Part shown: positions 957 through 61,695 of the stretch, one piece after another
Position numbering within the stretch: the stretch's first letter is position 1
Layout: the number at the start of each line of letters is the position of its first letter
Assembly (NCBI GenBank): GCA_964016885.1
Contig: OZ024745.1
Coordinates: forward strand, 14,694,001-14,758,000
DNA from: Eledone cirrhosa
Lineage: Eukaryota
Reading direction: 5' to 3'
Length of the DNA: 64,000 bases
Made by a program: the position numbers and the translations under genes
Notes under the pieces: generated by a model
What the model was told of the DNA's origin: nothing
Seen by the model: the letters and a program-made list of their open reading frames with translations, nothing else
The model's database searches: none

Positions 957-1133
957 TAACGAAGGAAGTATGGTAAGGAACCAGGTGGACCATAACGCAC
1001 CAGAGTACTCGATACTTAGGGTAGTAGAGTGGGTAATAGGAAAAGAGTCAGGTCACCGACGGCCGAGCTCAGTCCAGAAAGAGGCGTCGAAACGGCTTGA
1101 GCTCCGCCGTCGGGGTCCTCACTCTTTTCCTAT
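957..1133. mobile_element. Short PLE-like foldback element, family E (long arm on -, short arm on +)
   Basis: Same sequence as copies at 45.1, 54.1, 56.6, 57.6 and 61.5 kb; carries GAAACGGC-loop-GCCGTC (hammerhead stem III + GUC); flanked by TA repeats. Confidence 0.7.
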
Positions 1134-2149
1134 ATATCTCTCTCTCTCTCTTTCTCTCTCTCTCTCTCTCTATATATATATATATATATATATATGCTTT
1201 GAAAGGGTGAAAGCAAAGACTTTGTATTTTAACTTATAATTTGTTCACACACACACACACACACACACACACACACATATATGTATATATATATATATAG
1301 CTATGGAAACAACTAGACATCGAAGAGGAAGCTGTAAATGAAACCCCAAAACAAGAATATTATAATATTACCTATGATATATTGGCATCTGCTCATTATT
1401 TTAATTATTAAATTATCGCTAGTATAAGGTTGTTAATCTGGAATTATGTTCCTGATATTCCTGATAAAACGAATCAACTCTAAACAGTAAATTTATCCAG
1501 CAATATTAATTACGTAATATCCTTTATATCAGCAGCTATTTTAATTACATTATTATTTTGATTACGTATATTAACATTTAACATGTTTTACAACAATCAG
1601 TTAATTATGATGTTCCGTTGTCATATTAGATAAATAAATAAATACATATGTAAGCATGAGCATATAATTATTTCTATATATTTCTCTATGCATTCATATA
1701 CTAATATTAACATGTACAAAGCAAGCTGCTTTTCTAAAAATACTTGAATAGGTTTATCTAATTATGTGTTTGAATAGAAGTTAGATGTAAACTTTATGAA
1801 ATTGAAACAATAGACATGGAGATGTCTTTCTATAAGTATTCACATTTCGTGTTAATTATTCGCTCCCATCTTCTCAATTATAATTCGCATTTCTACAATG
1901 CTTGAATATTAGTTTATAGCATAGAAACAACAAGGTATAAAGATATGCCACGAAAGTATTTTTATTGACGCACTTCAGGTTCTACACCTTAATTACTCTC
2001 ACGCTGATTAACCATTTCGTTTCATGGATTCAAGGCCTCGTAACTCATGAGGGAATCGTAGGGTTATCGTATTGACATAGGATATTTCTAGGGCAGTTTT
2101 AAACGCAGGCTAGCCCAATCCTCCCCCGGTCTGAATACAGCAGATTTAT

Positions 2150-2300
2150 TCCAGTACTTAACTGTTACTTTTTATCGACCTGGAATGAATGAAAGGCAAA
2201 GCTGATCTCGGTGGGATGTGAACTCAGTGCAGACAACTGAAACGAATACCGCAAAAGCACTCTTTCCGACGTTTTAACGACTTGACCGATTGGCCACTTT
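2150..2300 (-). mobile_element. Diverged SINE copy
   Basis: TTTATCGACC...ATGAAAGGCAAAG...GGGATGTGAACTCAG matches the SINE core on the minus strand. Confidence 0.7.
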
Positions 2301-5300
2301 AACCATTTCGTTGAGATATTTCTAATAAATGACACTGCCTATGATTCTTGAATATACTTTCAAATAATGGTTCTGATTTAGGCATAAGGCCAGCAATTGT
2401 GGGAAAGGTGAACGAAAAGTCGAATATATCAACCCCATTTGAATATCAATAGGCCAAGTTTTTACAGTGTGTCAGAGGATTAGTGTCCAGAGTTTAGGAA
2501 GGGAGAGACAGCAGGGCGATCAGAGGAGTATAGGCTACTGTGTAATCTCTGGGTGGAAGATGTGTCCTCCTAGTTATTTCTAAGGAGCAGAGGTAGGTTG
2601 GGGCGGGCGTTGTAGTAGATCTGAGAGGGATCGAGTAAAGAAACAATTCATCTGCATGTGACTGGAGATTGAATCGTTGCCGATCAACCACATAGTTTAG
2701 ATGAAGTACTGTATGATTCTTGTTGCTGTTTATCTCTAAGTTAGCCTTAAATGAGCAGACATACGATTAAAGGCTTTATAGACACGAGCACCCTGTCTTA
2801 TTTCAAAAATAAATTATACAACATGTCCTTCAATTTCTAAGAAAGTAGTGTATGATTTGAAGTAAACTTGGCTACTGATACAACAACTTATGCGTGTTAC
2901 ATGTGGACTCCTTATATGACAGAAACCATTTTAATAGCTCTGAAAGAGATGAGGAGAAGAAATATGTGAAATAGTAATATGTTTAGGAAGGAATATTCGA
3001 AACTTATGCACATTGCCTTATAAAAATGTTCTACATGTGTGTGCGTGTGTGATGGATGACACTCATATACGCTAAGACTTAATGGTTGCATCATCTTCAT
3101 AGAAGTGCACGTTATTAGAAGTAATATGATACTACTTTGCTGTAATCCAAAGATATTATTTGCATGTACAGAATATTAAATATTTTAAAACCAAAAATAT
3201 TAACAAGAATATTATCGGCATTTTACATGAGTAATCTTGCATTGAACTCAAATTATAGTTTTATCTCCATTTGATACGTTATACTACAAAGACATTAACC
3301 ATCATTTCTTTCTGCTGTGAATCATCTAACATTAATTATCATTGACAGGAAAGTTTCACACATTTCTTGTCGTCAGAATTACAAAAATATAATATGAAAT
3401 ATTTGAATATGTATCATATTGCTATAGACAACGTTTATATAGTCATTGTTTCCATAAATTAGTGAAGATGCTAGATGACTATTATGTTTCAGATGATGTT
3501 TAGTTTTAAAAACTCTGCAGCGAGAGCTGTGACTTTCAAGTGAGGAAATGATTGGCGAATGATTTGGTGTGAAACCTATTAGCTGAGATACTGTATGTAT
3601 ATATGGGGAGGCGGAAAATCCTGTGTCGTGTTGAATTAGGTAAAAAGGTATATAGTGAGATAGGTCATATGTGTAGAGGCCGTTATGGAAGAAGCATAAG
3701 ATATAGAAAACAACCCGTGGGAATGAAAGAAGATTGGGAGTAAATCTTTGCCATTTAATTAATGGGCTTTAGATGCAGCTACGTTTCTTAAAAAATATTT
3801 TGTAATTACTCTCTAAAATTCAAAGGCAAGAACTGCAAGACGTTCAAAATATTTGACCTTCCTCTCTCCAGCTTTGTACTCTAAATACCAATAATATTTA
3901 GGGTCACCAATTCCATATATCATTCCCAAAGAAACCTTTAAGATGCAAGGAACCGAACATATGTTAGGAAATCTCAGACACTACATGAATTGAAATATGC
4001 GCTTGACGCAGCATAGCTCCACCATTATATTATCCGGTAGGAGCGTGTACACCTGAGCTTTGCCATAGTAAGGAATTAAGCGATTGTTTGTTTGAATTTC
4101 ACCACATTCTATGGATCACTGTTATATGATTTCTGTAATACTAAGATACTGAGATACGATTTCATCACATAGATTTTCACTTGCATTAGTGATGTAAGTT
4201 ATTATCCTATATACGAGCCTTCTTGAAAATATCCATTAGATGTTGCATACCCTCTTCTGTGTGTGCCACAAAATCATAATCTTCAGTACAGAGCAAGTCT
4301 CTCACCAAGGTCAAAAATACCGTTGTCTTTTCCTTAAAAAGTTAAATGTTGAATACATTTCTAGTCTTTCGATAACGGACATAAACACCATGTCTAATGT
4401 CCTCAAATGCCTGTTGAAATACCATTGTGAAGTACAAAGCATTTAGTTGTTAACAGTAGTTCATACATTTTACTGACATATTAAATTTCAATGGAGCTTT
4501 TAATGTCTATTTTTAAACATGGTCATCATTGCTTTAGGTTGCAGAGGGAGCTATGTTAGCTGGATGTTTTGTTTAGGAAGGAAATTGTTAAAACTACATA
4601 TTTCAAGTATACAGCACATACATCACCTTTGTTCATAAGCCAGTAGCTCACTATTTGCTGTTTTCACCAACAAATGCCAAAGCCTTTTCCACCACATTTC
4701 CGCGATAACATTGGCATGTCACTTGATTGGAGACCATGTAGTAAAACTGAAAAAAAAAAAAAAATGCAACCTGAATTTTAGCGAATAAAAACACTCAAAA
4801 TGTTAAATTTATAATTTATTTCGTAATATCAACTTTTTATGGCAATTCTTGCTACCTGAAGACTGATACAATTTCATCGATTTCCATTGGATTTTAAAGT
4901 GAAGTTGTTAACTTTCTTAGGCAATAGATAACAATCTCTCGGGTCTTTGTAGTATGGCTGAAGCTTTCCAAACATTAACATCGATCAATGCATTCCTGAA
5001 TTATTGCCTGCCTTTATTATTCATGGCAAGATGGAATCATATAATCCTTGCTCTTTAATTATAAGTAACCTGCTCTAATATTTCCAGAATTATAAACGAA
5101 GCTTAACATAAAGTTGATTTCCTAATCTCCACTGTAATAATTATTATATTCTGACAATTCACTCTCACATCTGTTTCGTAATGGGGATAAAAATTTAAAC
5201 ATTCATGTCTTTCATAAAGGAAAATTTTCAAAATAGTTTTAAAAGGATTATTATAGTTATAATAACTAATAATATTACCATACAAAGCTGTTGTATTAAA

Positions 5301-60198: not shown

Positions 60199-60201
60199 TA
60201 T

Positions 60202-61070
60202 ATATTTATTAAAATAACAGATTAATGTTTAAGCAAAGAATCGCTGCTTTAACCCTTAACAGGATCCTCTGAAACTAACAAAGTCAATCTGTAAACGCAG
60301 AAGTGGATATTTAAAAAAACGTTGCAACCGGAGGAAGACAAGAAGACGATACTTTGGTTCGTGGAAACGTTCCCTGGCAAAGAACGGGAAAAAACGAATA
60401 TAATACGTCATTAATAGGAGCGGTGAAAAACAATTACACGCAAAGACAGGACCACGTTTATGGTATAAAAGAAGTCGTAGACTAATGTTCTCTTAGGTGG
60501 TTCATAGAGACGTTCTCTGGCAATGAACGGAAAAAACCAAGATAATACGTCATATGTGGAGCGTGGAGAACAATTGCACGCAAAGACAAAACCACGTAAA
60601 TGGTATAGCAGAAGTCGTAGACTAAAATTCTAACTAGTTAGAATTTTTGTCTACGACTTCAGCTATACCATTTACGTGGTTTTGTCTTTGCGTGCAATTG
60701 TTCTCCACGCTCCACATATGACGTATTATCTTGGTTTTTTTCCGTTCATTGCCAGAGAACGTCTCTATGAACCACCTAAGAGAACATTAGTCTACGACTT
60801 CTTTTATACCATAAACGTGGTCCTGTCTTTGCGTGTAATTGTTTTTCACCGCTCCTATTAATGACGTATTATATTCGTTTTTTCCCGTTCTTTGCCAGGG
60901 AACGTTTCCACGAACCAAAGTATCGTCTTCTTGTCTTCCTCCGGTTGCAACGTTTTTTTAAATATCCACTTCTGCGTTTACAGATTGACTTTGTTAGTTT
61001 CAGAAGATCCCGTTAAGGGTGAAAGCAGCGATTCTTTGCTTAAACTTTAATCTGTTATTTTAATAAATAT
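60202..61070. repeat. Spacerless palindrome, family H: ~434-bp arms, centre 60635/60636
   Basis: Centre AATTCTAACT|AGTTAGAATT; few arm differences; each arm has two diverged ~144-bp tandem units. Confidence 0.92.
60980..61055 (+). ncRNA. Extended type I hammerhead motif with A4 core variant
   Basis: Distal ACAGATTGA/TTAATCTGT; stem I AGTTT/AAACT; CAGAAGA 61001-61007; CCC/GGG stem II; GAAA 61021-61024; stem III AGCA/TGCT; CUU ending 61041. Confidence 0.65.
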
Positions 61071-61512
61071 TTGCTCTACGGGTCTTATATATTTGATATA
61101 TATTTATCCTTATCGAGTCCTCTTTGGATTTTAGTCTTCAAATTTATTATTATTACTAATGTATTATATATATATATATATATATATATATATATATATA
61201 TATAGAGAGAGAGAGAGAGAGAGATAACGGAACGAAATGCCTGTTAAGGAAGGTATATCTTCGTTCCATCATAGGATACATTACTTGCTAGCATGTTGCG
61301 CAACTTGGAGTGTAGCTGTCGGATTCCCAGGTTCATCTTTAACCTGTTTGTATTTTCGTAGGTCTAAGTGTCTTAGACTTGCGATATTGATGTATGTTTA
61401 ATCCTATTGAGAACCGATGATGCAGAGGCATTGTTGCTTTTAAAAAAAGAGGGAAGTGCAATAGGTGCTCATACGGGATAGCATCACACACATACACCTA
61501 TATATATATATA

Positions 61513-61695
61513 TGAAAAATTATGACCCCGACGGCAGAGCTCAAGCCGTTTCGACGGCTATTTCTGGACTGAAATAGCCGTCGAAACGGTTTGAGCTCTG
61601 CCGTCGGGGTCATACTTTTTCCTATTACCCACTCTACTACCCTAAGTTTTGTGTACTCTGGTGCGTTATGGTCCATCTGGTTCCTTACCACAATT
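61513..61695. mobile_element. Family E foldback
   Basis: Short arm (-) to ~61570, long arm (+) from ~61571. Confidence 0.8.

What the first reader, a model, noticed from the sequence alone, without database searches (positions are those of the whole stretch)
957..61695. Head-to-head foldback insertions in (TA)n, all with the same polarity
Seen: at least 13 inverted-repeat elements (0.96, 6.3, 22.8, 24.6, 37.6, 42.5, 54.1, 56.6, 56.8, 57.2, 57.5, 59.7, 60.2, 61.5 kb). In every one the hammerhead-sense strand is + in the right arm and - in the left arm, so 5' ends join centrally and 3' ends run out, mostly into TA repeats. They lack family-constant TIR lengths, so they are not MITEs. Established: PLE copies can have inverted partial terminal repeats. 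Inference: both ends of a break in (TA)n prime reverse transcription near the RNA 3' end and the two truncated cDNAs are joined. Here that seems the dominant outcome rather than an exception.
Basis: partly seen in the sequence, partly recalled or inferred. Interest (0 to 1): 0.8.

Follow-up and report, generated by a model that had tools for sequence, protein, structure and literature searches.

The report
Penelope retrotransposons inserting from both ends
The foldbacks are head-to-head pairs of truncated Penelope-like retrotransposon copies in TA repeats, nearly always with a different fixed start point at each end, which likely means both ends of one DNA cut prime copying of the element's RNA, a testable answer to how these elements insert.

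Summary
Real, and genome-wide. All 14 listed foldbacks exist. They are 3' parts of several Penelope-like element (PLE) families; two families (6 of the 14) were tied to ORFs with Hydra-clade motifs, which fixes polarity independently of the hammerhead. In 1.18 Mb of evenly spaced genome samples, 15 of 153 inverted repeats had a full hammerhead core: 15 pointed outward, 0 inward. Head-to-head PLE arrangement and a one-sided 'tail' are already published. Not found in print: the two outer ends are coupled. One arm ends at site 1, the other at site 2 (tail end): 10,122 family-A matches versus 258 and 235 rows for same-site pairs. Arms often do not overlap (13 of 31 family-D pairs), which argues against snap-back. 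Arm 5' ends pile up at an initiator-like A with an untemplated G (39 of 100 versus 2 of 44 at a control position), the mark of run-off at a capped RNA 5' end. Likely mechanism: a double-strand cut in (TA)n, each end primes at one programmed internal site, and the two cDNAs join. Corrections: outer ends are family-constant, and priming is internal, often near the RNA 5' end. Empty sites and native long reads were not available.

The parts
958..1132 (.). Family A head-to-head pair: left arm (-) with tail to site 2, right arm (+) from 1071 to site 1
6331..6618 (.). Family B pair; exception: neither arm carries the tail (both end at or within about 8 nt of site 1); full hammerhead core in both arms, outward
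22690..23223 (.). Family E pair: tail on left arm, right arm ends at site 1 against (TA)n
24613..25676 (.). Family F pair: left arm at site 1, right arm with about 170-nt tail; polarity from half-core only
37629..38064 (.). Family G pair: 48-nt left arm at site 1, right arm with about 115-nt tail
42510..42697 (.). Family C pair: tail on left arm, right arm at site 1
45123..45182 (+). Family A solo copy starting exactly at the initiator-like A and ending at site 1
48444..49291 (.).
49305..50476 (-). Family D copy with the endonuclease C-terminus (50285-50476, 86% to the intact ORF) running to site 1; links family D to its ORF inside the window
54053..54249 (.). Family A pair: site 1 left, tail right
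56574..56734 (.). Family A pair with a 17-20 nt left arm at site 1, tail right
56735..57102 (.). Family B pair: partial tail left (abuts the family A tail), site 1 right
57197..57401 (.). Family C pair: tail left, right arm ends near site 1 without TA
57548..57789 (.). Family A pair with a scrambled centre made of repeated short pieces of the arm 5' end
59639..60194 (.). Family I pair: tail left, site 1 right; polarity from half-core only
60205..61157 (.). Family D pair: two 435-nt arms, 98% alike, site 1 left, 88-nt tail to site 2 right; centre at a 4-nt self-complementary word
61514..61703 (.). Family A pair: site 1 left, 78-nt tail right, no TA on the right

Best explanation
These foldbacks are head-to-head pairs of 5'-truncated copies of Hydra-type Penelope-like retrotransposons in (TA)n, one copy ending at a fixed site 1 and the other at a fixed site 2, and they likely form when both ends of one endonuclease cut prime reverse transcription and the two cDNAs are joined. 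Shown: family identity and sense (ORF) for families A and D, outward 3' ends, site-1/site-2 coupling, independent centres, a sharp 5' stop with an untemplated G. Inferred: the element's GIY-YIG endonuclease (probably as a dimer) cuts both strands of (TA)n, a target that reads the same on both strands; each 3'-OH pairs with 2-4 nt of UA-like sequence at one of two programmed internal sites on the sense RNA; each cDNA runs until it falls off, often at the capped start of the transcript just upstream (so the pLTR at the mRNA 5' end is a main template); the two cDNA 3' ends join by microhomology or a template jump, and each then serves as template for the other's second strand. One RNA copied twice with strand displacement is my preferred version (about 60:40 over two RNAs held asymmetrically); the data do not separate these.
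For: ORF and sense: family D has many intact 713-aa frames with RWR, DKT, CxCX5C, CxxC, CxH motifs matching the Hydra description; family A long copy L146 = inverted site-1 arm + ORF piece with the same Cys motifs + tail. Polarity: full core outward 15, inward 0, no, of 153 repeats; family A 30 head-to-head, 0 directly joined tail-to-tail, 24 unpaired of 54 hit clusters. Coupling: 10,122 site1+site2 matches against 258 (1+1) and 235 (2+2) rows, the latter counted up to twice per element (95-98%; independent choice allows at most 50%). Family D: 18 of 20 pairs among 24 random insertions are 1+2, one 1+1, one unclear; of 30 site-1-anchored loci 14 have a site-2 partner and 0 a site-1 partner. 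Two RNA-templated events: in 31 family-D pairs the site-1 arm reaches further 5' in 25, the site-2 arm in 5, equal in 1, and 13 do not overlap (hand counts). Cap mark: G before the start A in 39 of the first 100 of 131 matches against 2 of 44 at a control position (p=7e-6); family A 42 of the first 100 of 241; 46 of the first 50 of 77 full-length palindromes have a single G:C centre where the template has T, on the site-2 side in 11 and the site-1 side in 9 of 20. Biochemical precedent: an anole PLE cuts and extends both strands, starts at two internal sites that bound the tail, and is predicted to be a dimer (PMC11167929).
Against: No empty site was found, so target-site changes and whether the TA runs pre-existed are unknown. 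A sizeable minority has no partner arm: 4 of 24 random family-D insertions, 11 of 30 anchored loci (3 of them unresolved upstream, 5 more run out of the fetched DNA), 24 of 54 family-A clusters by the automatic rule (at least 5 have a short arm by eye). Same-site pairs exist (2-5%; window 6.3 kb). The anole study saw no strand preference for either start site, no homology at the start site, and did not discuss inverted products; it is another clade. The cap reading has no RNA data (no RNA holder listed) and the family-A count has no control position. Only 6 of the 14 window elements are tied to an ORF; family C could not be linked. Partner arms are not always each other's closest relatives (below the median in 2 of 16). 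L131 looks like L1-type priming at an unrelated internal point.
Confidence: 0.7

Rival explanations
1. Snap-back: one cDNA primed at site 2 folds onto itself, copies itself, and the endonuclease trims the new strand at site 1.
For: Snap-back after full-length cDNA synthesis is documented for R2 (PMC11371274). Many centres are near-perfect palindromes and the anole enzyme cuts its own pLTR junction. It would give 1+2 automatically.
Against: The copied arm cannot reach further 5' than its template, yet the site-1 arm does so in 25 of 31 family-D pairs and 13 of 31 do not overlap. One-nucleotide centres cannot form a hairpin loop, and the G lies on either side. It may still explain some scrambled centres such as 57.5 kb.
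Confidence: 0.08
2. Self-priming on an antisense RNA makes the palindromic junction (the published proposal for PLE head-to-head repeats).
For: PMC3846280 discussion; palindromic centres are common here too.
Against: It does not predict non-overlapping arms, the site-1/site-2 coupling, or a G added at a sense-strand initiator-like position.
Confidence: 0.05
3. A few palindromic master copies (MITE-like or non-autonomous) are amplified as ready-made foldbacks, so the asymmetry is inherited rather than made at each insertion.
For: Family A arms are nearly constant and one centre recurs in many of the 30 best hits to the 61.5 kb copy (chosen by likeness to it).
Against: Centres differ widely among unbiased matches and across subfamilies; nearly every family-D pair has its own junction; identical-length family-D palindromes carry the G on either side 11:9; arms are 3' parts of RT-encoding elements.
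Confidence: 0.05
4. Two unrelated insertions or later recombination bring two copies together head-to-head; selection removes other arrangements.
For: PLE ends do cluster back to back in the same TA runs; long perfect palindromes may be unstable.
Against: Centres contain no TA target; both arms share subfamily variants (6 family-A pairs: mean distance 0.83 against 2.65 shuffled; partner above the median in 14 of 16 family-D pairs); 1+1 pairs have the same hairpin length as 1+2 yet are at least 39-fold rarer.
Confidence: 0.04
5. Assembly or library chimeras.
For: No native long read was available and no laid piece spans a window element with both flanks.
Against: Arms have diverged from each other (76-99%) and the inversion stops at family-fixed ends. 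Raw reads of three other samples show both fixed ends against TA and joints between arms; one strand-switch joint of family D recurs in all four runs laid, from two studies.
Confidence: 0.01

Closest known systems
Hydra clade of C-terminal EN+ Penelope-like elements (PMC8557442)
   Same: Single RT + C-terminal GIY-YIG-type ORF with RWK-like, DKT, CxCX5C, CxxC and CxH motifs; insertion into (TA)n; hammerhead in the pLTR; partial tandems.
   Different: Reported there as a small number of families in aquatic invertebrates; here at least 12,937 exact site-1 ends of one family and many families. Unit 3.27 kb rather than under 3 kb; tails 78-170 nt rather than 30-40; family D core reads CAGAAGA.
Inverted pLTR plus one-sided tail of PLEs (PMC3846280, PMC8557442 Fig. 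2 legend, PMC2377424 Fig. 1 legend)
   Same: Head-to-head inverted 5'-truncated copy, palindromic junction, tail on one end only.
   Different: Those papers describe it qualitatively on few copies and propose antisense self-priming or endonuclease resolution; here the coupling is 95-98%, arms often do not overlap, and both can end at a cap-marked start.
Poseidon PAc in vitro reaction (PMC11167929)
   Same: Both strands cut and extended; two internal start sites bounding the tail; template region at the pLTR-ORF junction.
   Different: No coupling of site to strand and no inverted product described there; start sites here show short UA-type likeness to the target.
L1 twin priming (passage in PMC11702581)
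   Same: Second DNA end primes a second reverse transcription on the RNA; 5' part ends up inverted; extra G marks a capped 5' end.
   Different: L1 uses the poly(A) end plus an opportunistic internal site and the pieces barely overlap (recalled); here both sites are programmed and the two cDNAs can copy the same stretch up to the cap, in the majority of insertions.
MITEs
   Same: Short, high-copy, inverted ends, TA flanks; likely to be annotated as such.
   Different: Derived from an RT element, variable centres, one-sided tail, continuous series up to full-length ORF copies.

Membership tests
Hydra-clade PLE | Single ORF with RT and C-terminal GIY-YIG endonuclease | tested here: met
   713-aa frame with RT-type YRDD motif and C-terminal IVY...YIG (read by eye); Pfam gave no significant hit; 818 relatives, one listed with PF01541
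Hydra-clade PLE | RWK and DKT motifs | tested here: met
   RWR and DKT in family D against the description; K reads R
Hydra-clade PLE | CxCX5C linker; CxxC and CxH beside the conserved E and N | tested here: met
   Present in family D and family A
Hydra-clade PLE | [quoted passage not shown] | not tested
   No alignment to reference PLEs was made
Hydra-clade PLE | Placement in the Hydra RT clade by phylogeny | not tested
   No named reference proteins were fetched
Hydra-clade PLE | Canonical hammerhead in the pLTR | tested here: inconclusive
   Canonical cores in families B, C, E, G, H; family D has CAGAAGA; the long family A copy has a variant first box; no Rfam hammerhead hit; cleavage untested
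Hydra-clade PLE | Insertion into (TA)n | tested here: met
PLE (general) | Partial tandem pLTR, inverted 5'-truncated copy, tail | tested here: met
   20 full-length family D loci show tandem and/or inverted upstream copies and two 3' ends
MITE / DNA transposon | Symmetric fixed TIRs around a fixed interior, no RT origin | tested here: not met
   One-sided tail, variable centres, ORF-linked
MITE / DNA transposon | Transposase-type target duplication | not testable with these tools
   Flanks are (TA)n and no empty site was found
Non-LTR retrozyme | Tandem non-coding units each with a type I hammerhead | tested here: inconclusive
   Only family H looks like a short tandem unit; families A and D are truncated autonomous elements

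The most novel reading that the evidence does not exclude
The normal PLE integration reaction is two-ended: a dimeric RT-endonuclease assigns one programmed internal start site to each end of a double-strand cut, copies one capped RNA twice, and uses the two cDNAs as each other's second-strand templates. Tail, inverted pLTR and the many short foldbacks would all follow from this one rule, which would hold across PLE clades and would have put on the order of 10^5 hairpin-forming elements into this genome.
Probability: 0.45. Interest if true: 0.8.

Novelty: new variant of a known kind. Interest (0 to 1): 0.62.

Why it matters
How PLEs, the sister group of telomerase, make their inverted pLTRs and tails is called undefined in PMC8557442. 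This genome gives more than ten thousand natural products of one family and three rules a model must meet: opposite ends use different start sites, arms are copied separately from sense RNA, and many stop at a cap-marked start. These can be tested directly in the published in vitro system. It also warns that such elements will be annotated as MITEs or as microRNA-like hairpins, and that they are dense (153 inverted repeats, 88 at TA runs, in 1.18 Mb sampled).

Tried and rejected
Rfam scan: no hammerhead family among 77 matches, so I used my own descriptor. Pfam: nothing significant on the ORF; family PF26215 is not in the search library. Empty sites: flanks of 47 and then 142 insertions were searched against all fetched DNA; 1 and 7 hits, all in simple repeats or neighbouring PLE ends, none informative. 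RNA: no RNA holder listed. Runs of organisms B and C cover only the repeat, not the flanks. Linking family C to an ORF failed; the family B link (L144) is only plausible, with a (CT)n run in between. Collision of the site-2 cDNA with the site-1 primer: 6 of 31 site-2 arms end within -15..+2 of site 1, but 7 end at +38..+51, so not established. Cap G at family A centres is confounded by the partner arm; I used copies that abut TA instead. The hairpin at 21070-21175 has no other copy in the fetched DNA and is left out. Earlier scan findings: three look-ups, nothing. Literature searches for the coupling or cap mark in PLEs found nothing beyond the papers cited; subscription papers, such as the 2005-2006 PLE reviews and the 2014 hammerhead paper (recalled, not seen), are not in the library, and no supplements were read, so a prior mention cannot be excluded. 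The host is not identified; I used 'octopus' as a search term on a guess from recalled repeat content, untested.
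Full report
Observation. A self-comparison of the window with simple repeats masked finds inverted arms at the listed positions, and the sequence shows all 14, the 56.6 kb one with a left arm of only 17-20 nt. Arm alignments are 76-99% identical. In 13 of the 14, exactly one arm carries a family-specific extension beyond the inverted part (a tail of about 33-170 nt); 6.3 kb has none. I call the inner fixed end site 1 and the tail end site 2. 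Most ends abut (TA)n; 57.2 right, 61.5 right and the 56.6/56.8 border do not. The window is G000:C5:14694001-14758000 in a 3.0 Gb assembly.

What the arms are. Copies of the 60.2 kb arm (family D) extend upstream into an ORF. The 89 scored matches to its N-terminal part include many 713-aa open frames. A natural copy shows RWR, DKT, an RT-type YRDD, CxCX5C, a C-terminal IVY...YIG, CxxC and CxH, the features given for the Hydra clade of Penelope-like elements in PMC8557442 section 11. Pfam names nothing; 818 unnamed relatives exist; no tree was built. Family A (five listed copies) has a long copy, L146:5988-8740: (TA)n, an inverted arm from site 1, a 5'-truncated ORF with the same cysteine motifs, 3' UTR, hammerhead, tail, (TA)n. 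So for 6 of the 14 elements sense comes from the ORF and the 3' ends point outward. Twenty of 118 sampled stretches hold relatives of this ORF. For the other families polarity rests on my hammerhead descriptor; Rfam gave no hammerhead hit.

Genome-wide polarity and frequency. I fetched 118 evenly spaced 10-kb stretches (376,046 of 1,180,000 bases masked). Of 153 inverted repeats kept (arm at least 30 nt, gap at most 700, at least 80% alike, low complexity dropped), 88 have an end within 8 nt of (TA)3, against 4.3% of random positions. A full hammerhead core points outward only in 15, inward only in 0, and is not called in 138; a half-core points outward only in 34, inward only in 3, both in 2, with family A supplying many of these. 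Family A: 30 of 54 hit clusters pair head-to-head, none joins directly tail-to-tail; at least 5 of the 24 unpaired show a short arm by eye. Family D: 20 of 24 insertions are head-to-head, 16 by the script and 4 by eye. Among the first 30 of 12,937 exact site-1 ends, 14 have a partner, 11 have none found, 5 run beyond the fetched DNA. Head-to-head is thus the majority outcome, about 55-85%.

The ends are coupled. Exact patterns over the whole genome give 10,122 family-A pairs with site 1 on one side and the tail on the other, 258 rows with site 1 on both and 235 rows with the tail on both; symmetric elements are listed up to twice, so 1+2 is 95-98%. Independent choice allows 50% at most. Family D agrees: 18 of 20 random pairs (one 1+1, one unclear), 14 of 14 anchored pairs (one shared with the random set), and a tail on exactly one arm in 20 of 20 fetched palindromes, three of which have a broken tail-less arm. 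Selected long copies include at least one 2+2 case (L130).

Both arms are copied from RNA. In 31 family-D 1+2 pairs the site-1 arm reaches further 5' in 25, the site-2 arm in 5, equally in 1, and in 13 the site-2 arm holds only the tail (hand counts). A cDNA folding back on itself cannot give that. Partner arms are closer to each other than to the median copy in 14 of 16 family-D pairs and share the variable stem segment in 6 family-A pairs, pointing to one source, though later gene conversion would look alike.

A cap-marked start. Family A arms stop sharply at an A 59 nt before site 1 and many family D arms at an A 74 nt before it. Both lie in initiator-like words (TTAGTC/TCAGTA, TTAGTT; consensus recalled). 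Where such a 5' end abuts TA, the base before the A is G in 39 of the first 100 listed (131 in all) for D, against 2 of 44 at a control position 16 nt away, and in 42 of the first 100 (241 in all) for A; the template has T there (hand counts; p=7e-6). Of the first 50 of 77 palindromes with both D arms ending at that A, 46 have one G:C pair in the centre, on either side (11:9), so they are separate events and not copies of one master. An extra G marks capped 5' ends in L1 insertions (PMC11702581, passage), and D. virilis Penelope has an internal promoter with an initiator (PMC2377424, passages). Three family B copies also show a G where longer copies have C. No RNA data were available. Tandem upstream copies in full-length loci end anywhere from +60 to -1725, so longer multimeric templates exist as well.

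Not an artefact. Raw Illumina RAD reads of another sample show thousands of reads leaving family A at site 1 (2143) and site 2 (3700) into TA, and about 260 reads over the centre position. For family D, arm-to-arm joints appear in two more samples, and one strand-switch joint (61001/61042) is in all four runs laid, from two studies. These are family-wide reads; none spans a window element with both flanks, and no native long reads were offered. No empty site was found.

Mechanism. Most likely (0.7): the endonuclease cuts both strands of (TA)n; each end primes at one of two programmed internal sites; the cDNAs run to the cap or fall off early; their 3' ends join and template each other's second strand. 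The anole PLE cuts and extends both strands, starts at two internal sites that bound the tail and is predicted to be a dimer, but that paper saw no difference of start site between strands and does not treat inverted products (PMC11167929; parts 1-2 of 4 read, plus a term search). One RNA or two is open. Snap-back as in R2 (PMC11371274, passages), antisense self-priming (PMC3846280, discussion and passages), inherited palindromic masters, sequential insertion and artefact are each at or below 0.08.

Novelty. The arrangement is known: PMC3846280 calls head-to-head the most frequent form and notes the tail on one inverted pLTR; PMC8557442 (passages and section 11) shows the inverted copy, the one-sided tail and the (TA)n target; PMC8969392 (passages) repeats it; the retrozyme preprint 10.64898/2026.07.22.740005 (part 1 of 5) covers non-autonomous PLE derivatives. 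I found no report of the 95-98% end coupling, the non-overlapping arms or the cap mark, within a library that lacks most subscription papers, and I read no supplements. Verdict: new members of a known clade whose insertions give new, testable rules for an open mechanism. Interest 0.62.

Noticed in passing
window 49305-50672: A family D copy on the minus strand (site 1 at 49305) meets at its 5' end a plus-strand piece (about 50480-50672) that ends at (TA)n and resembles another foldback family seen in L088, L191 and L205; possibly a head-to-head join of two different families.
   Followed up: partly
window 48444-49291; L110, L131: Family H looks like a short (about 660 nt) tandem unit with a full hammerhead, probably a non-autonomous, retrozyme-like PLE derivative.
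   Followed up: partly
   Followed up: partly
window 21070-21175: A 106-nt hairpin, 85% self-complementary, with no other copy in the fetched DNA and no TA flank.
   Followed up: partly
L031-L090, L153-L210: (TA)n runs of 10 nt or more make up 77,242 of 1,180,000 bases (3756 runs), and PLE ends sit back to back in them; whether the elements lengthen TA runs on insertion is untested.
   Followed up: no
L131:864-3013: Family D insertion whose inverted piece starts at an unrelated internal point with about 60 nt overlap, like L1 twin priming.
   Followed up: no
L146:8545-8665 and L121 site-1 region: The inferred start of family A lies inside hammerhead loop II, so the first pLTR of the transcript would lack half the ribozyme; family D has CAGAAGA in place of CUGANGA. 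Both could spare the priming sites from self-cleavage.
   Followed up: no
window 46141-48424, 41305-42184, 36512-37132: Broken LINE-type reverse transcriptase pieces (RTE-like at 46-48 kb and 41-42 kb, CR1-like at 36.5 kb; names recalled from motifs).
   Followed up: no
window 812-950, 7886-8024, 10058-10207, 14862-15046, 15080-15275, 28843-29038, 38204-38381, 51512-51643, 58109-58292, 59224-59408: A frequent about 190-nt SINE-like repeat, 85-95% alike, in both orientations.
   Followed up: no
window 29407-30080 and 34626-35181: Two minisatellite arrays (14-nt-based and 69-nt units).
   Followed up: no
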